NCBI GenBank assembly: GCA_000442015.1
Contig: KE561162.1
Span: 1 to 53,641, forward strand
From: Rozella allomycis CSF55
Lineage: Eukaryota
DNA length: 53,641 nt
Direction: 5' to 3'
Shown here piece after piece: positions 24,201 to 53,502 of this stretch. The notes beneath the pieces are model-generated. The model was not told where the DNA came from. It was given only the letters and a program-made list of their open reading frames with translations, and did not search any database. Both the position numbers and the translations under genes were made by a program. Position 1 is the first letter of the stretch; every line of letters starts with the position of its first letter.

Positions 24201-25111
24201 ATGCAAAACAAGAAAGACCTCAATGAACTTTTTCAACCTCTTTTGTTTGTTGGATGTGGATCCCTTTTGACAATATGCAGTTATATTTTGTATCAAAGAG
24301 GATTTAGAAAATATTCATCGCCAGATCTCATTCCTAGATTCATGTATGGAAAATATCTATTCGGACACATTGTAGAAGCTTGTGATTCTGATAATGTTCG
24401 GTTCAAGCATATACCTCTTTTTCGTATACTGGGAAACAAAAATGTCGAATATCAAAGTACTTGTCTAAAACATTGACAATAGATAAGAAATTAATGTACA
24501 AAAATACTATGAATATCAGACTAGCGGGTATTGACGCTCCCGAAGTATAAAATTCATCACTTTGTCAACAGATGAGTCATTTTGGAAAGACTGCTCAACC
24601 TTTTAGCAAAGAAGCAATGGAGTTTTTAAATAAATTAACTAAAGATAGATATGCCATTATTAAACCTCTTAGGTTAGATCGTTATTCTAGGCTAGTGGCA
24701 ATGGTGTATGTACGGAAAGGGTTAATAATAAAGAATGTGTCCTTGGACATGATACGAGCGGGATATGCCACAATATATTCAGGAATTGATGCTGAGTATG
24801 ATGGGAAATTAAACAAATTTAAAAAATGTGAAGCAAAGGCCAGGTATGTACTTGATCCAAACCTGTCCTAGGAAGCGACACCGCGGTATGTGGATTCAAT
24901 TAAAAAAGGGTAAATATCAAAGCCCGGCGGAATANCTCTGGGATTGATGCTGAGTATGACGGGAAATTAAGCAAATTTAAAAATTGTGAAGCAAAGGCCA
25001 GGTATGTTCTTGATCTCAACCTGTCCTAGGAAGCGACATCGTGGTATGTGGATTCAATTAAAAAAGGGTAAATATCAAAGCCCAGCGGAATATAAACGAA
25101 ACAATAAATGA
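24201..25111 (+). CDS. LCL3: SNase-like endonuclease LCL3 with N-terminal TM segment
   Basis: DSDNVRFKH, IRLAGIDAPE, HFGKTAQPFS, DRYSRLVA, RGMW. 3' end duplicated across N 24935. Confidence 0.85.
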
Positions 25112-32138: not shown

Positions 32139-33954
32139 ATGGAGGACATTGAACGTCATGAAGACATGGTCATCGAAAGATCTTCGATCAGAAGCCCCAA
32201 ATATTCATCTTTGCGTAGAATCGGTATGGTTGTATCAGCCGTGATTTTATCTTTCCTAACTGCCGGAGTTATATTTGGACATGCGGCATTGAGAACCTGT
32301 CTTGAATCCAGCGGCGCTTATCAAGATCTATGCAATGGTACGGATTCTGTAAAAATATTAATCTTTGTCAACTAGTGCCCGGAACGTGAATTGAAACTGG
32401 TTTTGTTGTTTACAATTGCGGCATCCGTCACTAATGTAATTATCGTTTATTAAATCTAAAAAGATTTCAGCTCTCATTTTTGGGACCATATTGGATTATT
32501 TTGGTCCAAAGAAGTCAGGCATTTTGGGATCAATCTTGTCTTTAGGAGGTTGTCTGTTCATGTCCTTTCCTACAAATAGTAATGGTGTTAATCTCATTGT
32601 TATATGTCATTGACAGTTATTTGGCGGGCTACATCTTATTTGCTCTTGGAGGTCCTTGTCTATTTCTTTCCGTTTTACATATATCCGCTGCGTTTCCTTC
32701 AAAATCGGGGTTGATTATGAGTTTCATAACTGGCGCATTTGATTCTTCNCACATATATTTATCATGCCATCACGCACATTCCGTCATGATGCAAGTATTG
32801 AAGATATTAAATCTGAAGCTTCACCATTGCTACAACAAAACAGAAAATCGAAGCTAGCAGGTTTGAGAAATGCAGATGCCAAAGGTCAATTTTACTCCAA
32901 GTTTTATTTGTACGCTCATTTTATTTGCAACATAGATTCATAACTTTATTCATGTGTCTAATGATGTTGCGAATGAATTTCNATTTTCAAATATTATTCA
33001 ACAGTGCCCATAATTGCGTGTTTGACACATATATTTATCATGCCATCACGCACATTCCGTCATGATACAAGTATTGAAGAAATTAAATCTGAAGCTTCAC
33101 CATTGATACAACAAAACAGAAAATCAAAGCTAGCAGGTTTGAGAAATGCAGATGCCAAAGGTCAATTTTACTCCAAGTTTTATTTGTAAATTTTTTCTGT
33201 TTGCAAAATAGATTCATAACTTTATTCATGTGTCTAATGATGTTGCGAATGAATTTCTACATTGGGACTATTTCTAAACAACTGAATCATCTCGAATCAG
33301 CAGAAGACTCGAGTAATTGAAAATAATTCTCTTCATGCAGAGTATTTAATAGAGTTCTTTGACTTGGCTTTACCTCTTGGCGGAGTTGTGGCGGTACCTG
33401 CAATTGGCTATCTTCTTGACAAATTTCAAATTCATGTTTCCATTTACACTGTATCTACAATGGCAACAATATTTGGAATATTCAAGTAAGTTTATCGCAC
33501 ATGGCCAATTTCAGTTTGTTCCCAATGTTCACTTTTCAGCTCTTCTCAATTCTTATTTTTGTAGTTCTAAGACCTNACGCTCATGGTCAATTTTAGTTTG
33601 TTCCCAGTGTTCACTTTTCAGCTCTTATCAATTCTTATTTTCGTAGTTCTAAGACCTCTAGTTTACACAACCGCTAGCGAGTTTTGTGCGAAAATGTAAT
33701 TTTATTCGTGATTGTTATTAAGATTTGGCTTTACGCACTTTGGGAAAATCTATGGCAGCATGACATTGATATCCGGTGTATTTAACTTATTGCAGGTATA
33801 TGAAATTGATTCTTCTTGAAAATAGTATCCATTATCTTCTTTATCACAATCACTTGAAACGTATACACCAGTTAACATTGTGCTGACTTCATTGACAGCG
33901 ATTTCTCTTGGCTTCCCTATTTATGTACAGAAAATGATCAAAGAGGAAAACTGA
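32139..33954 (+). CDS. MFS transporter, SLC43/FMP42-like (multi-exon, disrupted by Ns)
   Basis: AGVIFGHAAL, LDYFGPK, GLIMSFITGAFDSS, LRMNFYIGT, FGFTHFGKIYG. Confidence 0.8.
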
Positions 33955-36516: not shown

Positions 36517-39500
36517 TTATTGGAATAAATTCTGCCTAACCTTTTTAACTGTTGGTGAAGATTGAAATTCTAATTTAGGAGAGGATTGGAATGAAAAGGA
36601 AGAACTTTGAGGTTTGATTGGAGATAGAGCGTCTAGAGTTCTTTTGTTTGAATTTAAAGTTTGAAATTCATCGTTTTCTAATTTAAAAATAAAATTTTCT
36701 GAATTGAAACTATTTTGAGAACTTAATTTTGGAGAATTGAATTCTTTAACATTTGATGAAGAGATATTCTCTCTTAGACTTGACGATATATTATTATTCT
36801 CATTAGGCGAAATATTCTCTTTAACACTTTCTGGTGAAATATTCTCTTTAATATTCTCTTTCTCTTTAGTAATCCTTTTGGGAACTATTTTTAGATTATG
36901 AAATTTCTTACTATTCTTTTTGAGTAATTTAGTGTAATTGTAGAAAGAATCCCAATCTTTATTATTTCTAGTTGGTGGAAAAGGTTTGATTGAAAATTTC
37001 TTAAATTCAGAATCTAAATATTTCAAAAGATTTGATTTTTCATTTATTGTTAAAGAAGAAATAAAAAGAGAAAGAATTTTAAAGAAAGAAAGAACATTTT
37101 GTTTGTGAGATTTGTCAACAGACGCTGATAAATGTTGAATAACAAAATCAATTCCATTGCAATTGAATCTGAATAGAGCGTCTGTAGCAAAAACTGTTTG
37201 TTTAACCATAACAGAATAAATTTGTTTTGATAAAAGAAAAGAATCATTAAAATGTTCAGATTTGTTGCTTTCTAGAAACATTTCAAATGAAGATGAAATA
37301 CATTCTAATAAAATTTGCATTCTTTGAATTTCTGAAACAATTGATTTGAAAACATTAAATGATAAAAATTCTTTCATTATTTCATTAATGATTTCCAAGT
37401 CAAATTTATTATAATAACATAAAATCTTCTTCAATGATGAAACATTAAAGAAATCTAATTTAAATGATCTCAAAAGTGATAAAACTAAAATCTCACATTC
37501 TTCCTTCGTCCATTTATTAGATTTTATATTTCGTAAATATTTAAAACATGAATCAAAAAATGAAAAAAATGATGAAGAGATCTGTGGCTTAGAGATCAGA
37601 TTCAGCCACTCAATTGCCATGATGACGTCATCAAAAGTACCACTTTCAGAAGCCTTTATTAATAGATGAGCTAGATTTAATTTTTCATCATCATTTAGTT
37701 TATTAAAATTCCATAAAGATTGAACATATTTGATCCTTGGAGTTAGAAAAGGTTTTTCATCATCTAAAGATAATTCCAGATTAACTTTTTTAGATAAATT
37801 AAAAATTCTTTCTTCATCTTCAGATTCAATCAATAAAGATTTCAATTCTTCTAATTTCAATAAACTCTTTTCAATAATGTTCTGTTGATTCATTAAATGA
37901 GAAATCACAGAAGAAATTTTTGAATTGTTTGAATTCATCAAGAAGCATCGTTTAACGTCATCCCAAATCCCATCAACTTTCTCTTCCATTTCATTTAATG
38001 GGAATGTAATACATTCAACTAATTCACAAACTAAAATACTCTTTTCTACATCACCTGAATAAATAGAAAATAATTCATCCATTTCTTCTATTAAAATATT
38101 TGAATAATCTTTATTCTTACAACAAACTTTTAATAACTTTAAAGCAGAAACATTTATTTCATTTTGATCATCTTTGGAAATTTCTAAAATAGATTCCAAA
38201 TTTTCTAAATCTTTTAAATTAATTTGATTAAAAAATAATTCATAAAATTCATCTTTAATATTCAACAAAAAATAACAAACTTTTTCAACAATCTTTTCTT
38301 CTTGCAGAAAAATTGTTTTCATAAATTCTGACATTGAATTTCTAACCTTCAAATGAGAATCAAACATCAACAATGAAATCTCTTTAATTAATTCATCAGA
38401 AATCATTCCATTCAAATATGAAAATTTTATTATTTCAATCGCTGTTATTCTATTCAATTCATGATCATCTTCTTTAGCTATTTCTATTATTCTATTCCTA
38501 AACCTTTCAATCCACGATCTAAATCCAACAACTCTTTCTTGCTTCTTCATCAAATAATTAACTCCATTCAAACAACTATTTCTCACTAAATACTCTGGAT
38601 CACTCAAAAACCATCCAAAATATCGCAAATTATTTGAATCACTAAACAAATTTGGCTTCAAATCAACCCATTTAGATAACTCTGAAATACAACAACTTCT
38701 AATATGAAAATCTACATCTCTATATCGCTGAATAAACACAGCCTCATAAAACAATCCAATTTGATTCTCAATCTCTTCAATCTCACTCGTATAATCATTC
38801 CCATCTTCAACAATCTCCTTATTCTGTATCTTTTCTCCCAAATTCACAATCTTCTCCTCTATAAAATTACACCGCTGGCAAAACGACGTTATCACATAAT
38901 TCACTACAACAGTCGCAACATGTCTAATCGCTCTCTTCCTAGATCTAGACAACTCTCCCAGCCATTCCAAAAAATGACTCAAAATATCACTGTCCAGCTC
39001 AATCTCCTTGAAAAGAAACAATACAAACGACTCCAAATTCTTCATCAGCTTTTTCGTCTCCTTGCCCTTGTCACTCAGCATCGACGTGCCCTCAAAATCC
39101 TCGCTAATCATCTCCACACAATCATCACTCTTCACATCCTCCTTGCTCACATACCTCTCATATCCAGCAATCTATACACCCCACATCAACCTCATTACCT
39201 TCAACACCAGCGTAAAAAACCGATAGCTCTCATACTTGTCCTCCCGTATCTCATTACTATACTCATGCGCAAGCGTCTTCAACGCAGCCCTGCTACTGCT
39301 AATCGCATCTATAACCATCACAAAACCTAATTACTAAACAAGTCCAGCGCCTCGTTATCATCCTCCACTCTTCTCCTCTTCGCACGCCCTCTCACTGTTC
39401 TGCTATTGGAAACTTGTTCCTCGGGCTCACTGTCTTCATGCGAAAACCCATCCTCTTCTTCAACCGCAGACTCGTCCTCCTCCTCACTGTCTTCCTTGTA

Positions 39501-39616
39501 ATTTTGCGAAGACGTTCGCGCTGATCGGCGGAACCGACTGTCAACTCTAATCTCANGGAACCGACTGTCAACCCTAATCTCATCCGATATTATACATCCT
39601 ACTCGTCAACATCCAT
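36517..39616 (-). CDS. SCC3: Cohesin STAG/Scc3 subunit
   Basis: RAIRHVAT, FIQRYRDVDFHIRSCCISELSKW, LRYFGWFLSD, RFRNRIIEIA. Confidence 0.88.
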
Positions 39617-39758
39617 TTCTTAACTTCGTGGCTGGGTCAGGTTGGTTTGCCGCCCTTAATTCTCATAAACTTTTAATTNATTTAATCAAATTATTCAATT
39701 CTTTTATTGGTTTATTGTTTTGGTTTATTGTCTGATTTTGTAAAATTCTTGATGGGTT

Positions 39759-40730
39759 ATGGCGGAATTGCATACACCTACTCAACGGCAACGGCTTGTT
39801 TTGGAGAGATCGCGATACTATGACAAGAAGTCTAGAATTACTCATTTAGATATTGATACAGCCAGAGACGAGAGTTGTCAAACTGCACACGAGATTTGTG
39901 ACCCCAGAAGTGATACGCCAAAGTCTGCAAAAAATGTATGCAAAGAAACAAACAGAAAAATTGATGAATCAGAAAAATGCAGTTTACTGATAAAAGAATT
40001 CGAATCCAGCATGAAATCTGATAAAAACGATGTTGAAGCCAAAAAACGAGAAGAATTGGATCGACTAAAGATGAAAGAAATAGAACAGACCAAGTATATC
40101 ATGGATCTAGAGTTTCGGCTGCAAGAGAAAGAATGGAAACTGTCTCAGACAAACATATTGCTTGAAAACAATAGATCACACTCCACAGCCAGCGAAACAA
40201 AGATGCGGAAATTAGAAAGCGAGTTGTTACATGCGAACAAGGCTTTGCAAGAAGCGGCTTTGAGAGAGAAACAATTGAGAAACGCATGTCAGATGGAGAT
40301 TTTGAAAGCGAAACAGAACATGCAGGTTGAAATCGATCATATTAAGCGCCAACTGCTGGAAAGAATAGATAATGAAGAGAAAATTACAAATTCGGAATCT
40401 AGGAGAATCAAAGAACTTGAACATGAGATTGTAGCCACACAAGCACAGCTCTTTAAACTTCAGAATGAAAATGAACTTTTGAAATGCGAATGCGAAGCTA
40501 ATAAAATTAAATACAAGGAAACGGAGATTAATTTGAAGAATTCTGAATCGTCGAGAAATAAATTAATAGATTCTATTAAGCATCTGAAAGATGAATTGAC
40601 CATGTACACGCAATTTTTGGAAGATAAAAATTTTGAAATGCATCGACTGGAGAACGATATTCTACAATTGACCTTGGAAATCCAGGAAAAGTTTACAACC
40701 TTCATCAACGACTACAAGCAAGAATATTGA
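39759..40730 (+). CDS. Coiled-coil protein of unknown function
   Basis: 323 aa heptad-rich ORF. Confidence 0.65.
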   Translation: MAELHTPTQRQRLVLERSRYYDKKSRITHLDIDTARDESCQTAHEICDPRSDTPKSAKNVCKETNRKIDESEKCSLLIKEFESSMKSDKNDVEAKKREELDRLKMKEIEQTKYIMDLEFRLQEKEWKLSQTNILLENNRSHSTASETKMRKLESELLHANKALQEAALREKQLRNACQMEILKAKQNMQVEIDHIKRQLLERIDNEEKITNSESRRIKELEHEIVATQAQLFKLQNENELLKCECEANKIKYKETEINLKNSESSRNKLIDSIKHLKDELTMYTQFLEDKNFEMHRLENDILQLTLEIQEKFTTFINDYKQEY

Positions 40731-40921
40731 AATAAAAACCGTATTAGGTATTAGATATTAAGTAATGCTTTATTGATAACCAAACCCATATATTGTTCGA
40801 CCCTGCCTCTTCAATGCATACACTACATCNACTTTGGAAATCAAGGAAAAGTTTACAGCCTTCATCAACGACTACAAACAAGAATACTAAAATAAAAAAG
40901 TATTAGATGTTAAATAATGCT

Positions 40922-41233
40922 TTATTGATAGCCAAACCCATATATTGTTCGACCCTGCCTCTTCAATGCATACACTACATCCATAGTCGATACTGTATTC
41001 CTCTTAGCATGTTCAGTATAAGTAACAGCATCTCTAAGTGTCACTGTGAGGAAATCTTTCAAGCATTGCCGGATTTCAGGATATATGGCAGCAGACAATC
41101 TCTTCACACCGCCCCTGCGAGCAAGTCGTCTAATGGCACCGCGAGTTACACCAGTGATTGCATCCCTTAGTATTTTGCGGTGACGCTTTGCACCTGATTT
41201 TCCCATTCCTTTTCCTTTGCCTCTTCCTACCAT
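40922..41233 (-). CDS. H4: Histone H4 (divergent)
   Basis: [44 protein letters not shown]. Confidence 0.95.
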
Positions 41234-41887
41234 TTTCTGTGGCTTGGATTGTCACACTGCAACAACTCCGAAAATTGGATATTTCAAAATTCAATATTTC
41301 TATAGTTTTAACTCAGAACATAAATGTTGATATATTTAAGAGAAATATGTGTGAAATAATGAATGGAAAATCAATTAATCAAATAAGAATTCAAACAATA
41401 TTTTTATAATATGTGTGACCAATGAATGGAAAATCAATTAATAACATTATAAGAAATGCCTTGCTCTTGTACATATGTTTACAGAATTCAGAGCCACAAT
41501 TCATGCCTGGAGCGAACAGTTCAACAAACATTGTATTTATTTTTATGGAAAAGAAGGTTTCTAAATGTCTATGTTGCAAAATGTCACAGCGTGATTCGCA
41601 AAGTTGGAAAATAGGCCCAATCTGGATGAGCGGGCTCATTGATTACGCGTCATTTACGTCAAGCAGATTTTTAAAAGAAATCACCTTAAAATGTAAAAAT
41701 CACTTCTGCCTAGGGCAATAATTGGAGATATTTTCATTTTTCTTTACTCATTCTTAGGGGTTTATGTGATCATGCATTGGGAAATATCTCACAAAGTTCT
41801 TCGATTTACACCTTTTGGGCGTTGAAAAATATTGCCACATAACGTGACCCACAAAATTGGAAATGCCCAATCTGGAACCCTTGTAAG

Positions 41888-43699
41888 ATGAGGTTGATTT
41901 GTCTGTTTTTAATAGCGTGTATAACCTGTCATTCTCGTTTGATGACATTGCCCTGGGAAGTCGATGCGATAATCTTTGAATTTCTGTCTACAAAAGAAAT
42001 ATTTATGCAACTACAAAGATATCCATACAAGACTAAGTACAAGGATTTATTTAGAATTATTTCAATGTGTGGAATCTCGATGGTGCAGGAAGATCCGTCG
42101 TCGAAAGTTGAATTTAAACTTGATGGTTCAAACACAGATATCAGTTGTTTCGATGGTACAGATCCGGCACAAGTTAGTTTCTTCTTGAGAGCTTTTAAAT
42201 TGAATTTTGAGGCTCACTATGCAACCCTTCAGGATTATGTGAAAAAATCACATGTTTTTCAGTTATACGGGTTTGATGGATCCTTGACTATGACTGTACA
42301 TGATGACAACATCCTAAAAGTCTTGGAAAACCATCATAATTTAGTAGGAATATCAAAGTTGTTTTTTGATATCAGAACCAAACAACTTACCCAAAGCATG
42401 TTAGACTCTATTGCCGACGTCTTGCAAGCTTCAAAGTCTGTTAAACATTTAGTGATAGACAATCTCAATATTGCGAGAGATATTAATAATTTTAATTTTT
42501 GTAAACTATTCGGCTCATTTAAATATCTTGAATCTCTGAAAATNGTTATACGGGTTTGATGGATCCTTGACTATGACTGTACATGATGACAACATCCTAA
42601 AAGTCTTGGAAAACCATCATAATTTAGTAGGANCACATACGGGTTTGATGGATCCTTGACAATGGCTGTATATGATGACAACATCCTAAAAGTCTTGGAA
42701 AACCATCATAATGTAGTAGGATTATCAAAGTTGTTTGTTGATATCAGAACCAAACAACTTACCCAAAGCATGTTAGACTCTATTGCCGACGTCTTGCAAG
42801 CTTCAAAGTCTGTTAAACATTTAGTGATAGACAATCTTAATATTGCGAGAGATATTAATAATTTAAATTTTTGTAAACTATTCGACTCATTTAAATATCT
42901 TGAATCTCTGAAAATGATCGAATTTGAATTAAGACCATTGCAACTTGAATATCTATCGAATAATATTTTGTCATTAGGGAACCTAAAGACTTTGGCAATT
43001 TATTTAAGTAATAAACACGGTAAATACGGATATTGGGTCAATGGAAGGGATGTGATGCAGATACTGGCAGACAATCTGATGAATATTGAAGAATTGCATA
43101 TTGATTTTCGTGATTATGCAGAAAATGTAGATACTATATACTTTTTCGATAAAATTTCAAGGTCTAAAATGAAAAGTCTTACAATTCACGGGTTTTACAA
43201 GTTATCAGACGCTCAGGTGCACAAGTTTGCAACAAGCTACGGAAATCTTTGAGAATTAAGGTTGAAATTATCCTACGGAAACATGCTTAATATGGGAAAT
43301 TTTATAAAACACTTGAACCAATTCAATATAGAAACACTGGAAATTCCAATTGAATATGATAGAGTTAAAGTTATGTGGAATTGGATTGCCACGCATACAA
43401 AAACTGTAAAACGATTAATTGTAGTTGATGCTAACATAACGCTTCAAGATATGCGTGAATTTCTTTCAGATGTTTCTCCAAGCCTAGAATTCCTTGATCT
43501 TCTCCAAACGTCAATTGCAATTAGAGATATTTATGCTTTTACCGATCTTTTATTGAAAACAAATATCAAATATCTAAAGTTACCTAGGTTGCATGATAAT
43601 GTTGTCTGGAAGCTAAGGCGTACTTTGAGAAACAAGATTGTAGTATTGTTGCCTCAAGATTGTAATAAGACAATAAAAGGCCATAGGCTTATTAAATAA
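41888..43699 (+). pseudogene. Secreted F-box-like/LRR paralog 1, with a premature stop (43250-43252) and assembly duplications
   Basis: Colinear with paralog 2; TGA where the paralogs have CGA; Ns at 42544 and 42633. Confidence 0.7.
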
Positions 43700-44328
43700 A
43701 CGATTTATTTAACATTATTGCAAGTGCAGAATATACATGGTACAACAAGATCTATGTCAATGATTACAAATGACAACATTTCTTTGCCTGTTGGTCATTG
43801 ATCTTACTGCATGTCTAGTTGCTCAAAAATTAAAAGGAATATCATCGTCGCATCTAGGTACGAACCAATAACCATAGAAAATTTCTATATCGGCAATTAT
43901 TTTACATTGAGACCCACAAGTTGGAAACCCTTGAATTAATGAATCTGATGAGTGGGTTACGCGTCAAAACACTTAAAATATAAAGATGTAGTCGCATTGG
44001 GAGAATTGGATATGTCTTCTAAAATTTAAATTCTATCACTTATCCTCGCCATTGTAGTGATATCACTTGAAGGGGAAACCATTCGAAAAGAGTCGGGACC
44101 TCCTGAAATTNATGAGACCCACAAAGTTGGAAACCCTTGAATTAATGAATCTGAAGATATGTCTTCTGACTTCTAAAATTTAAATTCTATCACTTATCCT
44201 CGCCTTTGTAGTGATATCACTTGAAGGGGAAACCATTCGACAAAGAGTCGGGACCTCCTGAAAATTTCAAAGAAAAACGTGACTAGCAAAACTGGAAACT
44301 TTCAAACTCAATCTGGAACCCTTGTAAG

Positions 44329-45720
44329 ATGAGGTTAATTTTTCTCTTTTTAATAGCAAGTATAACTTGTCATTCTCGTTTGATGACATTTCCCTGGGAA
44401 GTGGATGCGATAATCTTTGACTTCCTGTCTACAAAAGAAAGATTTAAGCGACTAAAAAGATATCCATACAAGACAAAGTACAAGGATTTATTTAAAATCA
44501 TTTCCAAGTGTGGAATCTATATGGCGCAAGAAGATCCGAAGTCGAAAGTTGAATTTAAACTTGATGGGACGAAAACAGATATCAGTTGTTTCGATGGTAC
44601 AGATCCGGGGTTAGTTAGTTTTTTCTTGAGAGCATTTAAATTGAATGTTGAGGTTCACTATGAAAAAATTCAGGATTATGTCACAAAGTCGCATGTCATT
44701 AGGAAATACGGATTTGATGGATCCTTGCGTTTGACTATTAATGACGAAAACATTCTACCATTCTTGGAGAACAATCAGACTTTAGTAGGAATATCAAAGC
44801 TGTTTGTTGATATAAAAGCCAAGCAAATCACTCAACGTATGTTGGACTCAATTGCTAAAGTTTTGCAACTGTCGTCGTCAGTGAAGCATTTCGTAATGGG
44901 AAACGCTGAGATCCCCGGAGAGATTAATAATTTTATGTTTAACTGTCTATTAGATTCATTTAAAAATCTTGAATCCCTGAAAATGATCTTTTTTGAATTA
45001 AAACTACATCAAGTGGAATATCTGGCCAATAATATTCTTCCTTTGGGCAACCTGAAGACTTTAGATATTTCGATAAGTTATAAAGATGGATTTTGGATCA
45101 ATGGAAAAAATATAATGCAAATATTGGCAGACAATTTGAAAAACATTGAAGATTTACGTGTAGACTGCTTAGGAAAAGCGGAAGATTTAGAAATGATATA
45201 TTTTTTTGAAAAAATCGCACAGTCAAATGTAAAAAGGCTTGCTATTCATGGCTTTTTTAACTTTTCAAGAGAGCAGGCGTTGACAATTTCTCAAAGCTAC
45301 GGAAATCTACGAGAATTGAGACTGCAACTATATTACGCAAATATAAGGAGAATAGGAACTTTTATAAAACATATGAATCAATATAATATTGAAACGTTGG
45401 AAATTCCAATTGAACATACCGAGATTAAAGTTAGCTGGCATTGGATAGCCACGCACACCAAAAATGTGAAACAATTAATTATAGTTAACGCTCACATAAC
45501 AATTCAAGATATGCATTTATTTCTTTCAAATGTTTCTCCGACGTTAGAATTCCTTGATCTTTTGCAAACAACGTTTGCAATTGAGAAGATTACCCATTTT
45601 ACAAGTCTTTTATTGAAAACAAATATCAAATATCTAAAGTTGCCCACTTTGAATGATGAAGTTTTAAGGAAATTAAAGGGTAATTTAAAAAATAAGATCA
45701 TTTTATTATTGCCTAAATAA
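44329..45720 (+). CDS. Secreted F-box-like/LRR protein paralog 2 (intact, 463 aa)
   Basis: MRLIFLFLIASITCHS + LMTFPWEVDAIIFDFLS + LxxLxL repeats (NLESLKM, NLKTLDI, NLRELRL, TLEFLDL, NIKYLKL). Confidence 0.8.
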   Translation: MRLIFLFLIASITCHSRLMTFPWEVDAIIFDFLSTKERFKRLKRYPYKTKYKDLFKIISKCGIYMAQEDPKSKVEFKLDGTKTDISCFDGTDPGLVSFFLRAFKLNVEVHYEKIQDYVTKSHVIRKYGFDGSLRLTINDENILPFLENNQTLVGISKLFVDIKAKQITQRMLDSIAKVLQLSSSVKHFVMGNAEIPGEINNFMFNCLLDSFKNLESLKMIFFELKLHQVEYLANNILPLGNLKTLDISISYKDGFWINGKNIMQILADNLKNIEDLRVDCLGKAEDLEMIYFFEKIAQSNVKRLAIHGFFNFSREQALTISQSYGNLRELRLQLYYANIRRIGTFIKHMNQYNIETLEIPIEHTEIKVSWHWIATHTKNVKQLIIVNAHITIQDMHLFLSNVSPTLEFLDLLQTTFAIEKITHFTSLLLKTNIKYLKLPTLNDEVLRKLKGNLKNKIILLLPK

Positions 45721-45764
45721 AATCCATTTGTAAATCATAAAATTTGTTCTTCTTTTCATATTTA

Positions 45765-45821
45765 TAAGGGTTGATCAGGGTTAAGGGTTAGGGTTGAGGG
45801 GGTTAAATAAAGATTTAGGGG
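45765..45821 (+). repeat. Degenerate TTAGGG-like tract / G-quadruplex motif
   Basis: taagggttgatcagggttaagggttagggttgaggggg, with five G-runs of at least 3. Confidence 0.6.
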
Positions 45822-46539
45822 AAACTATTCGTCAAAATTACCATGGGATCGCCAAGCCCCCATGTAAGTCATTAATAAGCCAGATCCCCCGACATTAATA
45901 TACTTCACAATCAGAAATTTCGGGTCCCAAACACTAGTCAGATTCTCATTCAACCCTAAATCATGTGCCAACCCACTCTTCTACGGATGGATGCACGAAC
46001 AGTACAGAGATACCGCGTCTATGACCACGAATCCGTTCTTACTCTAAACAAAGTAATCCTCGCATTTCAAAAATAACCACGCACGGACGCTATATCTATC
46101 ATTTTGAGTTTGATAGCCTGATCACGAGGGAATAGGTATACTTTAAAGGAAGACGAAGAAAACTCAAAAATACGAGAGAGTACAATCCTAAATACAGAAC
46201 TCAAATATGGCTGTCAACAGCTCCCAAGGACGAGGGATCCACTAAGCTGCAATTATTGAGCAGTTTACAATGCTAGTTTTATCTTTGCTGAGACGAACCA
46301 GTTTTATACGGCGTCGGGCGTGGTATTCTTTGGTAGATAAGGGGGTTCTAAATTGGCGGGTGAGGTATAGGATGAAAGTTCAATTGAAATCAAAAACCTT
46401 CCCACTGCAAGCTTTGTTACTTAATACTTTATCCAACAGACCAATATATAACTGATTTTTTCTAATTCACGCGTCGCCGAAAATTGTCTCAACGTGATCC
46501 ACAAATTTGGTAATTTTGCCAATCTGGAACCCTTGCAAG

Positions 46540-48074
46540 ATGAAATTATTTTGTTTCTCTCTAATAGCAAGTATAACTTGCTATTCTCGTTTGATGACTA
46601 CACCATGGGAAGTCGATTCGAGAATATTTGATTTTCTATCTGCAAAAGAAAAATTTGAGCGACTTCAAAGAGAGCCCTATAGTGAAAAATACAAGGATTT
46701 ATTTAAAATCATTTCAACATGTGGAATCTATATGGTTCAAAAGGATCCGATGTCGAAAGTTGAATTTAAACTTGATGGAAGGAACGCAGATATCAGCTGT
46801 TTCGATGGTACAGACCCTGTATTAGTTGGTTTTTTCTTAAACGCATTTAAATTGAAAATTGAAGCTCACTATGAAAACATTCAGGATTATGTCACAAAGT
46901 CACATGTCATTAGGAAATACGGATTTGATGAATCATTGCGTGTCACTATTGATGATGGAAACTTGCTAACATTCTGGGAGTACAAGCATTCTTTATTTGG
47001 AATATCAAAATTATTTATTGACATTAAAACAACGCAAATTACGCAAAATATGTTGGACTCTATCGCGGAAGTCTTGCAACTGTCGCCGTCAGTGAAGCAT
47101 TTAGTGATAGGCAACCGTGAATTTGCGAGAGGAATTAATAATNCTTAATTGGAATATCAAAATTATTTATTGATATTAAAACAAAGCAAATTACGGAAAA
47201 TATGTTGGACTCTATCGCGGAAGTCTTGCAACTCTCACAGTCTTTGAAGCATTTAGTGATAGGCAACCGTGAATTTGCGAGAGGAATTAATAATTTCAAC
47301 TTTTTCAAACTGTTTGACTCATTTAAATATCTTGAATCTCTGAAATTGATCCATTTTGAATTAAAGCCACCTCAAGTAGATTATTTATCGAATAATATTC
47401 TTTCATTAGGCAATCTAAAGACTTTAGAAATTTCACTAAGTTATAAAGATGGGTATTGGGTCAATGGAAGGAATGTAATGCAGATTTTGGCAGACAATCT
47501 GAAAAACATTGAAAATTTACGTATAGACTGCTTAGGAAAAGCGGAAGATTTAGAAGTGATATATTTTTTTGACAAAATCGCAAATTCTAATGTAAAAAGG
47601 CTTATAATTCATGGTTTCTTCAACTTTTCAAACGAGCAAGCGATGAAGATTTCACGGAGCTACGGAAATCTACGAGAATTAAGATTGAACTTATACTACG
47701 GAAATGTAAGACGAATAGGAAATTTTATATTACACTTAAATGAATTCAATATTGAAACGCTAGAAATTCCAATGGAACATTCTGGGATTAAAGTTAGCTG
47801 GCATTGGGTAGCTACGCACACCAAAAATGTGAAACATTTGATTATTGATAACGCTCACATAACACTTCAAGATATGCATGACTTTCTGTCAAATGTTTCC
47901 CCAAGGTTAGAATTCCTCAACCTTTTGCATACAAGTTTTGGTTTCAAAAACATGGATCATTTTGCAAAACTTTTGTTGAGAACAAACATTAAATATCTAA
48001 AGTTGCCTAACTTGGATAACAACGCTTTGGCGAGGCTGAAACTTAACTTGAAAGACAAGATAGTATTCTTGTAG
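46540..48074 (+). CDS. Secreted F-box-like/LRR paralog 3 (broken only by the N 47143 duplication)
   Basis: MKLFCFSLIASITCYS + LMTTPWEVDSRIFDFLS; colinear with paralog 2. Confidence 0.78.
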
Positions 48075-48099: not shown

Positions 48100-48745
48100 T
48101 GATCCATGATTTTTTGTTAGTAACCATTTCATCGCATTCAAAGGGAGAATAACTTCCTTTAGATTGAAGTTTCAATTACCCTGATCCGTCACTCTGACGG
48201 AGTCGATTCGCCCATGTAGGTGGCAAATTGGCAATCGCTATTTGGAACATCCATCGCGAATGTTGAACTGGATTGGGTGTGAACTCAGGGATAGTAATGT
48301 AATTGCAATATCATTGGGATCTTGCCATCAATTATTGGTATTGGAAAAATATTTCAATCAATAATTGAGATATTGGAGATAGCAACAACTTTTAGATATA
48401 TTTCGGTCGAAATAAGAGTCTAAGACCGTTTTTCTAATTGAACTCTTTAGTTAATTCAAACAAAAACTATTTTTTGATTCAGACTTCAAAATTCTTCTAA
48501 CATTAATGAACCATTAACCATTTTAAAAAAGTTCGTCTTTTCGTTTTAAAAGGAAACTCAAAAGAAATTATACAATAATCAGAGATATCTGGTTTCTCCA
48601 AAACTTCACCTACAACTTTAATCCAATCATTACAATCAGATTGAAAAGATTGCAAGAATAAATTGCTTTTATCTTTTTCATATTCAAATGTTCCATCGAA
48701 AACTTGATAAACCGTAAACGTGAATACAAAAGCTTCTTTTAGCAT
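48100..48745 (-). pseudogene. Degenerate ORF, possibly ADF-H (cofilin/twinfilin)-like
   Basis: DYCIISFEF...RTFLKW and a later KSSIRK segment loosely fit ADF-H; downstream frames have stops that I could not splice out. Confidence 0.25.
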
Positions 48746-48882
48746 TAAAGGGAAATGTTTTTTTAGTAAAATTGTTTTTTAATCTTTGAATTAATTTTAA
48801 TAAAACACCAGAGTTTTCATTAATTTAATAATTACAAAAAAAATCAGTCCTTTTCACAGTACCCAGACCCTTGGCAAACTTA

Positions 48883-49489
48883 ATGACATTTCAAGCACCG
48901 CAGACACCCATCGCAGCGCTTGGATCACCTCTACCATCCACCCAAGAATCAGCGGCGATTACGTTACAGGATGTGACTGATGAAATAACACACGCGGATA
49001 GAATCAAGAAAATCAAAACTGTTGATTCTGCACTAATAACACCGGCTATTCTTTGCGAGGTAACTAATTATATAATATGTATTAATCTAGACGAAGATAT
49101 ACGAGCATCAAATGTTGCATACTGCTGTTACTAATGCTAACCCTGCGAATGTGGCGCCCCTTTGGGCTGAAGAATTGATTGCCAATAATCAAACATTAAT
49201 GAACAGTACAAGAACTTTGATGAACAGGACAAGCCCTGAGTTGCTGGCACAACGTTTGATGAACGAGTCTGCGGCTCAGATGAGCCATCCTATCACTCTC
49301 ACAAATCATCCAGACACGGGAGCCCCTCCGCCGCAGATAAATGTGAATACAGTGCATGATCTGGCCAATGTGGGTGCTCAGCAAGTGACCTTGCTGACAA
49401 CGTTTTATGGGATTAATGTCGCCAACATGAATGCCATGCAACGGAAACGGGCCCTTGCTGCCTTGCTTCATGTCAAATTGCTATTGTGA
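48883..49489 (+). CDS. Mug135-like family protein (two exons)
   Basis: Intron 49060-49090 restores the frame. APLWA, short coiled coil, QRLMN, GAPPP, T..DL, LTTFYG...RKRALA.LL, as in the Mug135-like C-terminal domain. Confidence 0.6.
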
Positions 49490-49862
49490 ACAAGTGCTCG
49501 TTAACTGGAAGGGGAAGTCTCAAAATGAATAAATTTTAAAAATAACATGAATTTCTAAAGTTGCAATTTTAGCACTTGATATTTCTATTTTCTTGTCCCT
49601 CTCAATTGGCCAAATAGATCTTTATCGTTAACATGAAACACACCTCTATATTTTTCTCACAAATCAACATTCATGATGTCATGTTTGACCAACTTTAATC
49701 TTTGATAACCCATATTCCTATGAAACTTATTAATAGCATATGACTAAAATTACCTACCCAGAAAATATAGTCATGATGGAAATGTGATTATGACGTAGTA
49801 CTTGCCAGTTGCCATTACATTTTATCTATTTACCAATAAAATAAGGCACAATAAATAATGAG

Positions 49863-50425
49863 GAGTTTTCATTATTTTAATAATTACAAAAAAAGATCAG
49901 TCCTTTTCACATTAACGCATACCCTTGGCAAAGTTAATGACATTTCAAGCACCGCAGACACCCATCCCAGCGCTTGGATGCAATAGCACATGCTGATAGA
50001 ATAAAGAGAATCAAAAATGTTGATTCTGCATTAATAACACCGGATATGCTTTAATCTAGGCGAAAATATACGAGCATCAAATGTTGCACACTGCGGTTAC
50101 CAACGCCAATCCTGCGAATGTGGCGCCACTTTGGGCTGAAGAATTGATTGCCAATAATCAAACATTAATGAACAGTACAAGAACGTCGGATGGCTCATCT
50201 GAACCGCAGTCTCGTTCATCAAACGTTGAGCCCGTAGCTCAGGGCTTGCCCTGTTCAACAACGTTCTTGTCCTGTTCATCAATGTTTTTGGCAATCAATT
50301 CTTGAGCCCAAAGTGGTGCCACATTTGCAGGATTGGTTAGTAACCGCTGTATGCAACATTTGATGCTCGTAATCTTTCGCCTAGATCAATACAAAAGCAT
50401 TCCGGTGTTATCACTGCAGAACAAC
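49863..50425. repeat. Inverted-repeat pseudocopy of the Mug135-like gene (arms 50019-50186 and 50261-50425), preceded by a copy of its 5' flank
   Basis: 49863-50186 is a direct degenerate copy of about 48811-49215; about 50188-50425 is the reverse complement of about 49021-49290; no N at the junction. Confidence 0.85.
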
Positions 50426-50537
50426 ACCTGTTGTAAAGAAAGTATGTTATTCCGACCCAAAATGACCCTATACTTTCTTTCAAATTTTTGTAAAAGCATT
50501 ATTCGATTTCAGGAAATTTAGAAATTAGATATTCTAA

Positions 50538-53502
50538 ATGACTGATCATGAAGTCATAAAGTCCATTCTCGGTGTAGATTTTAATTCTCCTGTTGTAAAA
50601 ATACATTAAAATTGCAAACAGCTTAAACACCTCAAGGAAGAGTTTGAACAAGAAAATCTTGCGTTGGAGTTTTCCCAGGAGACTATTGACAGAGTTTTGT
50701 TTTCATTGTTATCTAATGCTAAAAAGACACCATCTATAGATATATTGTTTAAGCTCTACAAGCGTTGTCTTGAAAGAAATGAGAAGGTCGTTCAGTCACT
50801 TAGAGAATTGATAGTGTCATATACGGGATTGTTGTTTCAAATGCCAAGCATGTTTGAAAAGTAATTTTGCGGATATTTGGTTTGATAGAAATGAACATCC
50901 TACTATTGAGGGGATTGTTGGTGATGAAAAGGGGGAAATGTTTTGGAATGATTTTCTACAACGATTTCAAAATGATGCAGAGTTTCCAAGTGTATATTAT
51001 TAGTTATTGTAAAATAGATCATTGAAATGATGACAATGTCACTTGTTTTACCTTTACGAGCGAAAAGATTGGTTGATGGCGACTATCGAGATATTGTGTC
51101 TGTAAGTTCAATTTCTGATTATAAAATAGAAATTCAAAAGTTTATTAAAAAACAAAATAATTGCAGAACAAATTTCCAGATTAGATTCTTTCAATTTGAC
51201 TAATTTGCAGAGTGCTAGAGATTTTGAAATTCGATCCATACTAGGGCCATTTTTCAGACTTTCATTTTTTCCTGATTTAGATGTAAAATAGAAATTAGAA
51301 AATTAATAAAGAATGAAACAAAGAATGTCTATTTTCCAAATGTTGAAAGAGTGACAAGAAATGAAATTGAATCAGCTAATTATACTCTTGTATCTATTTT
51401 TAAAAGCCTTGCTGTAAAATAAGTTTGCTGACTTCCTTTAGATTGACTTGAATGAAATTTCAATGACATTTTTAAAGGCATCTTCAGTTTCAAAGGAGAA
51501 TTTCTTAGGATTTTTGACCAAAGTGATAAATTTGAATAAGAAGAGAGCTGGAATGCAAGCTGACATGGAAACAGTTGGCACTGAAGGATTCATGCTAAAC
51601 ATTTTATACCTTTTGCTTTCTCTATGCAATCCATTTTTAAATGAAGAAAAAGTAAATATTTTAGCGTTAATTTTTTCTAGTTTAAGCTTGTTGATAAAGA
51701 ATACTTTAAACATTCAAATAGAATTCAATTGGACGATGAAACAAGAATAACTCTTTCTCAAGAAGAGGCCTCAAAATATTTTGGTATCTCAATTAATATT
51801 TCGCATTCAATTAGCGTCTGATTTGCAGCAATGTAATTTTATTTCAGATTGTTTCTATTTAACAATGACTTTCCTTCATTTAGGATTGTTAAAGTCTATC
51901 GATATCATGACTGAAAAATCTAAAGAAATAAATGAACTACGTGAAGCGATAAAAAGAATTGAAAGTTCATCAAATTTTAATCCCCTCAACGATGCTTTAA
52001 AAAAGAAATGGCAAGATTCAATTGACCAGGGTGTTAGGGATATTCTAATTTATGAAAGCGTTTTAAAAGACGCAGAAATTATTAATTCAATTCATCAATT
52101 ATATTCCTGTTTCATTAATTATATTTTTACAGACTTTAATTTGGCTGAACCGTTTCCAAAATATTTTAGTCATTTCCCTCAATATTACATTGAAGATTTG
52201 TGTGAATTTTATGTTTATCTTTCTCGCTTTGATCCTCAATGTTTAAACCAACTCAATCTTTTACCAGTCATTAAACTATCTATAGTAATCACTACCAGCA
52301 ATGAATTGAGAAATCCTTTCATTAAATCCAAATTTATCCAAGTAAAAATTAATTCATTTCTTGATTTCTGTTTATTGCTGGTTGGTTCCATTATTCTGAT
52401 CCATACGTGGGTGTCAACCAACAGTTGTTTCATGACCCATTTGTTGTTTCTCACTTTATCCCGTCATTAATTCAATTCTACATTGGTAATTCCTTGCTTT
52501 AATCTTTATTTAGATGCTGAAAGCACTGGCGCTTCATCGCAATTTTATGACAAGTTTAGCATTCGTTATGAAATCTCTCTAATCTTCAAATTCTTATGGA
52601 AGCTAGATGATCATCATAAAAGAATGATCCAAAGCTTCAAAACTAAAGAAAATATCAGGTTTTTTAATCTCTTATTAAATGACATCACCTACCTCCTCGA
52701 CGAATCCTTAACAAAACTAACTGAAATAAATAAACTACAGCATGAGCTAGAAAACAATTCCTTGAGTCAAAATGAAAGATCTGAAAAAGAAAAAACTTTA
52801 TATCGTACAGAAAGGCAAGTTACATCAACACTTACACTTGGAAATGCAACTCTGGAAATGCTGAAAATGATAACATCAAAGGTCACTGAACCATTCTTTG
52901 CCCCAGAAATTGTAGAGCGTTTAGCGGCCGCTCTCAATTACCATCTATCGCAACTGGTTGGTCCTTCATGCATTGAACTAAAAGTCAGGAATCCAGAAAA
53001 GTACAAATTCAATCCAAAAGGTCTCTTAAGTGATCTCATAGATCTCTACTTGAATCTCTCTTCGCAACCATTCATTGCTGCTCTTTCAAAAGATCAAAGA
53101 TCTTTTAAATTTGCAAATTTCGAACGAGCTGCGCAGATTATGAGCAGGAGCATGTTAAAGTCGCCATCTCAGATTGAAAAATGGATAGATATCGGCAAAA
53201 GGGTTCTTGATGCGCAAAAAGATAACAAAGATGATGAAGAAGCTATGGGCGAGATTCCCGATGAGTTTTTGGATCCTGTCATGTTTACACTGATGGAAGA
53301 TCCGGTTATTTTACCTACTAGCAATGTCACTGTGGATAGGAGCACTATTGCTTTGCATTTGCTGAATGACAAGTCTGATCCGTTCAATAGGCAGCCGTTG
53401 GATGAGTCTATGTTAATACCAAGTAAGTTGATGTTGGAAATTTAAAAAGATGTAAAATTGTTGGAAAGGATTAACGAATTTAAATCACGAAATAAAAAAT
53501 GA
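50538..53502 (+). CDS. UFD2: U-box E4 ubiquitin ligase (multi-exon)
   Basis: [49 protein letters not shown]-box [18 protein letters not shown]...DPFNRQPL. Confidence 0.95.

What the first reader, a model, noticed from the sequence alone, without database searches (positions are those of the whole stretch)
48811..50425. Mug135-like gene paired with a promoter-bearing hairpin pseudocopy: candidate hpRNA/siRNA silencing module
Seen: about 370 bp after the intact gene (48883-49489), its 5' flank and ATG are duplicated (from 49863). A deleted sense copy follows and then flips into an antisense copy, giving ~165-nt arms (50019-50186 and 50261-50425) around a 74-nt loop that is itself antisense to the gene. 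No N lies at the junction. The arms share variants absent from the neighbouring gene (gcggtt, ccaatcctgc, ccacttt, ctaggcgaa, loss of the intron donor), so they are closer to each other than to it. Known: inverted gene duplications give rise to endogenous hairpin RNAs and plant miRNA genes, and Drosophila hpRNAs suppress selfish meiotic-drive genes; Mug135 is a poorly characterised, meiotically upregulated family. Inference: a co-promoted hairpin RNA may silence this family, as a gene/suppressor pair.
Basis: partly seen in the sequence, partly recalled or inferred. Interest (0 to 1): 0.8.

Follow-up and report, generated by a model that had tools for sequence, protein, structure and literature searches.

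The report
Decayed inverted copies beside Tdk-like gene
Next to a small Rozella gene distantly related to a fission-yeast "killer" meiotic-drive gene lie two broken partial copies, one flipped, that could fold into a long RNA hairpin, but the sequence looks like decaying gene copies rather than a maintained silencing device.

Summary
The anatomy is real. The window is Rozella allomycis CSF55. Gene O9G_003433 (48883-49489, 191 aa) is followed after 373 nt by a sense pseudocopy (49863-50186) that turns into an antisense pseudocopy (50188-50426). This gives arms of 169 and 166 nt around a 74-nt loop. De Bruijn contigs from two full-depth runs cross the turn.

The gene is a remote relative of Tdk1/Mug135, a proven killer meiotic driver family rich in pseudogenes (PMC11551393, PMC12930445).

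The sequence tests lean against a maintained hairpin:
- The left arm is nearer to the gene (7.5%) than to the right arm (11.2%).
- 14 of 19 coding differences among the three copies are synonymous, which is coding-type divergence.
- Arm transitions give 2 G:U against 5 A:C pairs on the + strand, and the arms differ by 7 indels.
- Only 3 of 146 right-arm 21-mers match the mRNA perfectly.

No RNA run was available, so expression and small RNAs are untested. My verdict is birth-and-death debris of a Tdk-like gene with hairpin potential. I put the suppressor reading at about 0.15-0.2.

The parts
48811..48882 (+). 5' flank of the intact gene that is duplicated downstream. It is 72 nt of the 137-nt gap to a divergent minus-strand ORF.
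   Evidence: 67 matches, 5 mismatches and 2 indels against 49863-49936. The upstream ORF is read.
48883..49489 (+). Intact gene O9G_003433, 191 aa. Exons 48883-49059 and 49091-49489, with a 31-nt phase-0 intron at 49060-49090. It is a remote Tdk1/Mug135_C-like protein.
   Evidence: identical to deposited protein P0001; for family
49490..49862 (.). Unique 373-nt spacer between the gene and the pseudocopy. An AATAAA at about 49527 lies 40 nt after the stop codon.
   Evidence: no other match in the window
49863..49936 (+). Duplicated 5' flank ahead of the pseudocopy's ATG. It is a possible but untested promoter remnant.
49937..50186 (+). Sense pseudocopy (L). It covers the gene's ATG to gene position 49215/49217, with 56-nt and 29-nt deletions. 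The reading frame is broken after 19 codons.
50018..50186 (+). Left hairpin arm, 169 nt (sense to the gene).
50187..50260 (.). 74-nt loop. Positions 50188-50260 are antisense to gene 49218-49290, 65 of 73 identical.
50188..50426 (-). Antisense pseudocopy (R), equal to gene 49020-49290 on the minus strand. It carries a 23-nt deletion over the intron donor and six smaller indels of 1, 1, 1, 1, 2 and 5 nt.
50261..50426 (-). Right hairpin arm, 166 nt (antisense to the gene when read on the + strand).

Best explanation
The locus is birth-and-death debris of a Tdk1/Mug135_C-like gene in Rozella allomycis. One intact copy (O9G_003433) is followed by the remains of two extra copies: a direct one (L) and an inverted one (R). 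Deletions, or a replication template switch, have joined them so that they now abut.

Both remnants are non-coding. L is frameshifted and both have lost the intron donor. Most of the substitutions that separate the three copies are synonymous. They therefore arose in lineages that were still under protein-coding selection (the intact gene's own lineage and possibly once-functional extra copies), not under selection for RNA pairing.

The 165-nt imperfect inverted repeat is a by-product. If transcribed, from the duplicated 5' flank or by read-through from the gene, it would form a long imperfect hairpin and might incidentally feed RNAi. Nothing in the sequence shows that pairing or target complementarity is being maintained.

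Shown: the anatomy, the junction in reads, the pseudogene state, the remote family link, the codon-position bias and the weak target match. Inferred: the mechanism of origin and the lack of function.
For: - Anatomy and broken frames.
- Junction: contigs X1 record 8 (depth 176.7) and X2 record 15 (depth 289.3) start at 50155 and run past 50700. Neighbouring unique contigs have depths of 230-385. The 56-mer shared with the gene (50129-50184) has about double depth, 623.
- Distances: L-G 7.5%, L-R 11.2%, G-R 13.0% of 161 columns. Private changes are L 4, R 13, G 7.
- Coding differences inside the arms: 14 of 19 are synonymous against 24% expected, p = 6e-6. By class: gene-private 6 of 7, R-private 6 of 10, L-private 2 of 2.
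- Arm mismatches: 7 transitions give 2 G:U and 5 A:C on the + strand. There are also 4 transversions and 7 indels.
- Target match: right-arm 21-mers antisense to the spliced mRNA are 3 of 146 perfect, 11 with one mismatch, 24 with two, and 108 with three or more.
- The 5' flank (67 of 72 identical) is no better kept than the rest.
- Family link: phmmer finds 5 remote relatives at E 1.6e-6 to 5e-4. All 5 give Mug135_C matches, at E 2e-5 to 4e-3. P0006 passes the Mug135_C cut-off, and P0003 and P0004 pass the DUF3294 cut-off. The AlphaFold2 model has pLDDT of 90 or more over about residues 90-190. Its two best PDB matches of 350,542 chains are Tdk1 (9ja5_A and 9ja6_A, probability 1.00, E 0.03-0.04, TM 0.43-0.55). 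The three best listed feature hits (scores 0.93-0.95) are clusters in which 20-42% of members carry Mug135_C, and the service reports that 9 of the ten best family-bearing hits share a family or clan.
- Family habit: in Schizosaccharomyces 49 of 93 tdk loci are pseudogenes, with tandem pseudogene pairs and local duplication (PMC12930445, passages and section 13).
Against: - No RNA data could be laid, so a functional transcript is not excluded.
- The pseudocopy keeps the gene's 5' flank and ATG. The hairpin is very stable on either strand.
- The remnant has persisted in a compact genome long enough for about 11% arm divergence.
- L and R seem to share the left boundary of the donor-removing deletion and 7 substitutions. 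The history is therefore not resolved. Gene conversion from the gene into L, or independent deletions in the AT-rich intron, must be invoked.
- The private-change asymmetry is only borderline (4 against 13, p = 0.049; 3 against 11, p = 0.057).
- Pfam itself gives no hit for the whole protein, and the profile found no PDB sequence match to Tdk1, so family membership rests on transitive and structural evidence.
Confidence: 0.62

Rival explanations
1. hpRNA suppressor. The duplicated 5' flank drives a + strand RNA that folds into the 165-nt hairpin. Dicer cuts it into siRNAs, and those from the right arm guide Argonaute to the O9G_003433 mRNA. This would keep a Tdk-like selfish gene in check, as Nmy/Tmy hairpins do for Dox genes in Drosophila simulans.
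For: - The hairpin folds at -246.6 kcal/mol, z = -25.
- The junction is real in reads.
- The 5' flank and ATG are duplicated.
- 38 of 146 right-arm 21-mers are within 2 mismatches of the mRNA.
- R. allomycis Argonaute and Dicer were apparently used to root a tree (PMC7313128 legend).
- The family's founder Mug135 is Tdk1, a killer meiotic driver (PMC11551393). Remote IPR013902 genes are proposed as drivers (PMC12930445).
- hpRNA suppression of drivers is established in flies (PMC10292708, abstract).
Against: - There is no G:U excess on the + strand (2 against 5), and the arms differ by 7 indels.
- Divergence tracks codon position.
- The antisense arm is the most diverged copy (13.0% from the gene). 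Only 3 of 146 of its 21-mers are perfect matches.
- No second annotated copy of the family was detectable in Rozella to be silenced.
- The protein lacks a confident N-terminal domain, so its being a driver is itself unshown.
- A suppressor 1 kb from the driver is tightly linked to it, whereas theory favours unlinked suppressors (inference).
Confidence: 0.18
2. The remnant acts in another way. One option is a structured element in the upstream region of the UFD2-type E4 ligase gene, whose ATG at 50539 lies 112 nt past the right arm. Another is the source of a short protein (ORF 50081-50302, 74 aa) that keeps part of the stalk helix and could interfere with assembly of the parent protein.
For: - Position relative to the UFD2 gene.
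- An open 74-codon frame begins with an ATG inside the left arm.
- Tdk1 assembles through its stalk helix (PMC11551393).
Against: - There is no Pfam hit for the 74-aa ORF. About half of it is antisense-derived sequence with no homology.
- There is no conservation data and no expression data.
- Such ORFs are expected by chance in a recent pseudogene.
Confidence: 0.05
3. Assembly artefact: a mis-joined haplotype or a chimeric fold-back read produced the inversion.
For: - Elsewhere in the window the assembly contains near-identical tandem blocks separated by single Ns, which look like haplotypes laid side by side.
- The low-depth run X5 has a contig that joins gene-type left-arm sequence to the junction.
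Against: - There is no N within 2.7 kb.
- In two runs from two studies, k-mer contigs cross 50186/50187 with 32 nt on the left and over 500 nt on the right, at normal depth.
- Gene-specific and pseudocopy-specific contigs each have full depth, not half (X2: 338 and 385). The shared 56-mer has about double depth.
- Only the assembled order uses every node once.
- The X5 path is explained by missing cover (depth 0 at 49169-49235).
Confidence: 0.03

Closest known systems
tdk (Tdk1/Mug135) killer meiotic driver family and IPR013902/PF08593 superfamily of fungi
   Same: - A C-terminal globular domain preceded by a long helix.
- An invariant HPDTG..PP and FY core shared with relatives that hit Mug135_C/DUF3294.
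- A locus with local duplication and pseudogenised copies, as described for tdk loci: 49 of 93 are pseudogenes, with tandem pseudogene pairs (PMC12930445).
   Different: - The whole protein gets no Pfam hit and no sequence hit to Tdk1 in PDB.
- It is 191 aa against 357 aa.
- There is no confident N-terminal Z-shaped domain (residues 1-35 and 43-59 have pLDDT below 50).
- Only one annotated copy was detected in the species.
- Rozellomycota is not among the phyla named in the section I read (Basidiomycota, Ascomycota, Mucoromycota).
- Drive activity is untested.
Drosophila simulans hpRNA suppressors Nmy and Tmy of the Dox driver family
   Same: An inverted partial duplicate of a (putatively) selfish gene that can fold into a long hairpin (PMC10292708 abstract).
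   Different: - Here there is no small-RNA or expression evidence.
- The hairpin sits 1 kb from its would-be target rather than at an unlinked locus.
- The arms carry 11 mismatches and 7 indels, and only 3 of 146 21-mers match the target perfectly.
- It is a fungus-like parasite with no observed sexual cycle.
Young plant MIRNA genes and endo-siRNA hairpins born from inverted duplication of their target genes (recalled, no call)
   Same: Arms derive from the target's coding sequence, and the loop also derives from the gene.
   Different: This comparison is recalled, not tested here. No processing evidence is available.
Duplication with inverted triplication (DUP-TRP/INV-DUP type) products of replication template switching or fold-back repair (recalled, no call)
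   Same: The gene segment 49020-49215 is present three times, the third copy inverted. Flanking segments are present twice.
   Different: The copies differ by 7-13% and largely at synonymous sites. A single recent event therefore does not explain them. No clear microhomology is visible at the junction.

Membership tests
Tdk / Mug135_C (PF08593, IPR013902) superfamily | Pfam PF08593 (Mug135_C) domain above the gathering score | tested here: not met
   hmmscan of P0001 gives 0 families at E up to 10. Exon 2 alone gives only DUF3294 at E 0.11, 12.6 bits against a cut-off of 20.6.
Tdk / Mug135_C (PF08593, IPR013902) superfamily | Homology to domain-bearing members by transitive sequence search | tested here: met
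   phmmer over 1.84 billion representatives gives 5 hits at E 1.6e-6 to 5e-4 over residues 71-185. All 5 give Mug135_C matches at E 2e-5 to 4e-3. P0006 scores 25.0 bits against a cut-off of 23.8. P0004 (28.8 bits) and P0003 (20.7 bits) pass the DUF3294 cut-off of 20.6. The invariant alignment columns include H132 P133 D134 T135 G136, P139 P140, F164 and Y165. The three best Atlas feature hits (0.93-0.95) are clusters in which 20-42% of members carry Mug135_C.
Tdk / Mug135_C (PF08593, IPR013902) superfamily | Long alpha-helix followed by a globular C-terminal domain, as in the Tdk1 cryo-EM structure | tested here: met
   The model has helices 34-75, 77-105 and 108-118, then a compact domain, with pLDDT of 90 or more from about residue 90. 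The top two Foldseek PDB hits are Tdk1 9ja5_A and 9ja6_A (probability 1.00, E 0.028 and 0.040, TM 0.43-0.55). The next hit has E 4.3. The model rests on a 6-sequence alignment.
Tdk / Mug135_C (PF08593, IPR013902) superfamily | [quoted passage not shown] | tested here: inconclusive
   Residues 1-35 and 43-59 have pLDDT below 50, and no N-terminal domain is recognisable. The paper treats members that lack it as possibly pseudogenised.
Tdk / Mug135_C (PF08593, IPR013902) superfamily | Killer meiotic drive activity (single-protein toxin-antidote) | not testable with these tools
   This needs crosses or heterologous expression. [quoted passage not shown]
hpRNA / endo-siRNA locus | Long inverted repeat able to form an intramolecular duplex | tested here: met
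   -246.6 kcal/mol on the + strand and -262.2 kcal/mol on the - strand, with z of -25 and -26. None of 100 shuffles folds as well on either strand.
hpRNA / endo-siRNA locus | Single transcript through both arms | not testable with these tools
   No listed holder is on record as RNA, and the one read-laying run used DNA contigs.
hpRNA / endo-siRNA locus | Dicer-sized small RNAs from both arms | not testable with these tools
   No small-RNA data could be reached. I found no paper on Rozella small RNAs in the searches.
hpRNA / endo-siRNA locus | High complementarity of arm-derived guides to a target mRNA | tested here: inconclusive
   Of 146 right-arm 21-mers, 3 are perfect, 11 have 1 mismatch, 24 have 2, 23 have 3 and 85 have 4 or more. 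The match is weak but not nil.
hpRNA / endo-siRNA locus | Dicer and Argonaute in the genome | not tested
   No genome is held for this window. The only evidence is a figure legend implying that R. allomycis Argonaute and Dicer served as the root (PMC7313128). Supplementary tables that may list them are closed.
hpRNA / endo-siRNA locus | Selection for pairing (G:U or compensatory changes between arms) | tested here: not met
   The 7 transitions give 2 G:U and 5 A:C on the + strand, and the reverse on the - strand. There are also 4 transversions and 7 indels. With only one locus, no covariation test is possible.

The most novel reading that the evidence does not exclude
The hairpin is a working endo-siRNA source that holds a Tdk-like killer gene in check in an early-diverging fungal lineage. 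It would be the first hairpin-RNA/driver pair outside animals. It would also be evidence that both the Tdk superfamily and RNAi-based suppression of drivers reach back to the base of Fungi. The present mismatches would then reflect an ageing suppressor of a gene that is itself losing activity.
Probability: 0.1. Interest if true: 0.8.

Novelty: new member of a known kind. Interest (0 to 1): 0.4.

Why it matters
There are two modest gains.

First, an orphan 'hypothetical protein' of Rozella allomycis is linked by sequence transitivity and by predicted fold to Tdk1/Mug135. That family has been proven to hold killer meiotic drivers and is proposed to date from the fungal ancestor. The sections of that work I read name only Basidiomycota, Ascomycota and Mucoromycota. 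A Rozellomycota member, with pseudogenised local copies as in fission yeast, fits the deep-origin idea.

Second, the locus is a clean natural case of a driver-family gene with a neighbouring hairpin-forming remnant. One stranded RNA and small-RNA experiment would decide whether RNAi acts on it. If it does not, the locus is ordinary gene-family debris.

Tried and rejected
- No RNA holder was listed for 48700-50700. One RNA run of the same species label held next to none of the words, so expression could not be examined.
- No genome is held for the window. A search for other copies, other hairpins and Dicer/Argonaute genes was therefore impossible.
- Earlier findings: nothing on this genome.
- Rfam: 0 matches at E up to 1 over 48500-50800.
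- Pfam on the whole protein gave 0 families. The PDB sequence search with the 6-sequence profile gave only two chance-level hits at E 0.35-0.39, neither of them Tdk1.
- Metagenome scan: 38 pattern matches yielded 1 confirmed relative (L001, 2195 nt). It has no inverted repeat of 25 nt or more. One short contig says little.
- Runs X5 and X6 (low depth) cover the stretch only in part. X6 has no cover beyond 50173. X5's contig joins gene-type sequence to the junction, which I read as a path through the shared 56-mer where cover is missing.
- A first count from the three-way alignment (2 G:U against 8 A:C, p = 0.11; L 4 against R 15, p = 0.019) included columns beside indels. I replaced it with the pairwise and gap-filtered counts.
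- Clustering of the 7 shared arm variants (6 lie within 50060-50128, none in the 56 nt identical between L and the gene) suggests gene conversion. I did not test this formally, and the numbers are too small.
- Papers read for RNAi in Rozella that said nothing about it: PMC6206976 (resource table only), PMC5751038, PMC10393165 and PMC4313915, PMC7017984.
- PMC9457484 said nothing on Rozella ploidy.
- PMC2659443 mentions mug135 only in an expression table.
- 'DUF3294' occurs in 0 papers.
Full report
**What the window is.** The exon-2 translation of the gene in question matches, at 100% over its length, a single deposited protein: 'hypothetical protein O9G_003433 [Rozella allomycis CSF55]', 191 aa, on a contig of 53,641 nt. 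My splice model (48883-49059 + 49091-49489, 31-nt phase-0 intron) gives exactly that protein. The window has 29-39% G+C. Downstream lies a UFD2-type E4 ubiquitin ligase gene, with ATG read at 50539 and Ufd2P_core and U-box domains. Upstream lies a tandem triplicated leucine-rich-like gene.

**The observation.**
- After a unique 373-nt spacer, 72 nt of 5' flank and the ATG recur from 49863 (67 matches, 5 mismatches, 2 indels).
- The sense pseudocopy (L) runs to 50184/50186. It lacks 56 nt of exon 1, so the frame closes after 19 codons. It also lacks 29 nt over the exon-1 end and the intron donor.
- At 50186/50188 the sequence turns. Positions 50188-50426 are the reverse complement of gene 49290-49020 (R), with a 23-nt gap over the donor and six small indels.
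- The arms are 50018-50186 and 50261-50426. The 74-nt loop is antisense to the gene (65 of 73).
- Arm against arm gives 148 matches, 11 mismatches and 7 indels covering 17 nt.
- As RNA the + strand folds at -246.6 kcal/mol and the - strand at -262.2. Shuffles average -105 and -111, and none of 100 shuffles reaches these values on either strand.
- All five inverted pairs of 45 nt or more in the whole window belong to this locus.
- No Rfam family matches.

**Is it in the reads?** The window has 24 single Ns, the nearest at 47143. Several of them sit between 93-97% identical tandem blocks. The assembly therefore does contain haplotype artefacts, and a check was warranted.

I laid Logan contigs of four runs from four studies. 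All are labelled DNA?, and they may include the sample the assembly came from.
- In X1 and X2, contigs start at 50155 and run beyond 50700. That gives 32 nt left of the turn and more than 500 nt right of it, at depths 176.7 and 289.3.
- Unique neighbouring contigs have depths of 230-385.
- The 56 nt that L shares exactly with the gene (50129-50184) form their own node at about double depth (623 in X2).
- Gene-specific and L-specific contigs each have full depth, not half, so they are not alleles. Only the assembled order uses each node once.
- X5 (depth about 5) has a contig that joins gene-type variants to the turn. With zero cover at 49169-49235, that is the expected false path through the shared 56-mer.
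- X6 does not cover the turn.

The junction is real at the k-mer level. Long reads were not available.

**What the gene is.**
- Pfam finds nothing in the whole protein. It gives only a sub-threshold DUF3294 hit for exon 2 (E 0.11).
- An exhaustive phmmer search finds five remote relatives from metagenomes (E 1.6e-6 to 5e-4, 35-38% identity over residues 71-185).
- All five give Mug135_C matches (E 2e-5 to 4e-3). One passes the Mug135_C cut-off and two pass the DUF3294 cut-off.
- The six sequences share an invariant HPDTG..PP block and an FY pair.
- An AlphaFold2 model on this shallow alignment is confident (pLDDT of 90 or more) from about residue 90 to 190. It shows long helices followed by a compact domain.
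- Its two best matches among 350,542 PDB chains are the cryo-EM structures of Tdk1 (probability 1.00, E 0.03-0.04, TM 0.43-0.55). The next hit has E 4.3.
- The protein-language search gives three top hits of 0.93-0.95 to clusters in which 20-42% of members carry Mug135_C, and it reports that 9 of the ten best family-bearing hits share a family or clan.

**What is known about the family.** The literature changes the background. S. pombe mug135 is tdk1, a single-gene killer meiotic driver whose PF08593 domain and preceding helix were solved (PMC11551393, passages). A 2025 preprint (PMC12930445; abstract, passages, sections 8 and 13) reports the following:
- 93 tdk loci in Schizosaccharomyces, 49 of them pseudogenes, with tandem pseudogene pairs and local duplication.
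- 478 IPR013902 proteins, predominantly in Basidiomycota, Ascomycota and Mucoromycota.
- A proposal of an ancient driver superfamily.

Rozellomycota is not named in what I read, and the supplements are closed.

**How the three copies relate.** Over 161 gap-free columns of the arm region, L differs from the gene at 12 sites (7.5%), from R at 18 (11.2%), and R from the gene at 21 (13.0%). Private changes are L 4, R 13 and gene 7. Leaving out columns within 3 nt of gaps gives 3, 11 and 6. The left arm is closer to the gene than to its partner arm.

On the other side, L and R appear to share the left edge of the donor-removing deletion and the two substitutions beside it. That points to a common dead ancestor. 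The two signals conflict. Gene conversion from the gene into the direct copy L, or independent deletions in the AT-rich intron, would reconcile them. I could not decide between these.

**Codon position, not pairing.** Of 19 coding differences inside the arms, 14 are synonymous, where 24% would be expected (p = 6e-6). By class this is gene-private 6 of 7, R-private 6 of 10 (5 of 7 without one indel-adjacent cluster) and L-private 2 of 2. Most divergence therefore arose in lineages under protein-level selection. Those lineages are the intact gene and its ancestors, and perhaps extra copies that once worked.

Outside the conserved helix the picture is looser. In exon 1, 5 of 8 L-to-gene differences are non-synonymous, and in the loop part 5 of 8 are.

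On the - strand the counts are reversed. This is no sign of selection for pairing, and with one locus no covariation test is possible.

**Silencing capacity now.** On a + strand hairpin, only the right arm yields guides antisense to the gene. Of its 146 21-mers, 3 match the spliced mRNA perfectly, 11 have one mismatch, 24 have two and 108 have three or more. In the loop there are 0 perfect matches and 9 of 54 with one mismatch.

**Context for RNAi and drive.**
- One paper's legend says R. allomycis was used as the root of phylogenies that include an Argonaute + Dicer tree (PMC7313128). The other papers I opened say nothing about Rozella RNAi.
- No second annotated family member was detectable. 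One search found 1 protein among those of 72-231 aa. None of the five remote hits comes from an NCBI genome record.

**Verdict.** The simplest account is the turnover typical of this gene family: extra direct and inverted copies, now truncated and joined, beside one intact gene. The hairpin is a consequence of their orientation. It may well give double-stranded RNA if transcribed, but pairing, target match and the 5' flank show no better preservation than neutral decay allows. A suppressor 1 kb from its target is also not what drive theory favours (inference).

I put this reading at about 0.6, a working hpRNA suppressor at 0.15-0.2, other functions at about 0.05 and an artefact at about 0.03. 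The suppressor reading stays open until RNA data exist.

Noticed in passing
window 21988-22313, 24779-25092, 33496-33657, 32750-33257, 42262-42721, 40748-40981, 17717-18079: Single Ns (for example 22150, 24935, 33576, 42544, 42633, 40830, 17863, 32749/32982) sit between or beside 92-100% identical direct repeats. This looks like two haplotypes of a heterozygous strain laid in tandem by the assembler, so local 'tandem duplications' next to an N in this assembly are suspect.
   Followed up: partly
window 41867-48074: Three tandem copies (period 2.06-2.44 kb, 66-90% identical) of a long ORF with leucine-rich-repeat-like sequence. The third copy gives no Pfam hit at E up to 0.01.
   Followed up: partly
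window 48898-48931: A second form of the gene's exon 1 is present as a minor contig in run X1 (depth 91) and as the only form in low-depth run X6. It has C>T at 48898 (Pro to Ser by my reading), G>T at 48918 (synonymous) and a 6-nt in-frame insertion after 48931. It is an allele or an unassembled second copy. The frame is kept.
   Followed up: no
window 49516-49629 and 50614-50664: There are further two-state sites in the reads. Three SNPs in the spacer appear in X1 (depths 125 and 236). Three in the UFD2 5' region are carried by the X2 and X5 contigs. This is consistent with a heterozygous or mixed culture.
   Followed up: no
window 50539-53445: A UFD2-type ubiquitin chain elongation factor (Ufd2P_core E 1.5e-93, U-box E 1.9e-22). 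By my reading, exon 1 ends before an intron at about 50596-50622. Its ATG lies 112 nt beyond the right arm.
   Followed up: partly
window 38001-40000: Strong negative GC skew (-0.416) in one 2-kb bin, against values within +/-0.2 elsewhere.
   Followed up: no
window 48503-48745 (minus strand): An 80-codon ORF lies divergent from the gene, only 137 nt from its ATG. It has no Pfam hit. The shared intergenic stretch may be a bidirectional promoter, of which only the gene-proximal 72 nt were duplicated.
   Followed up: no
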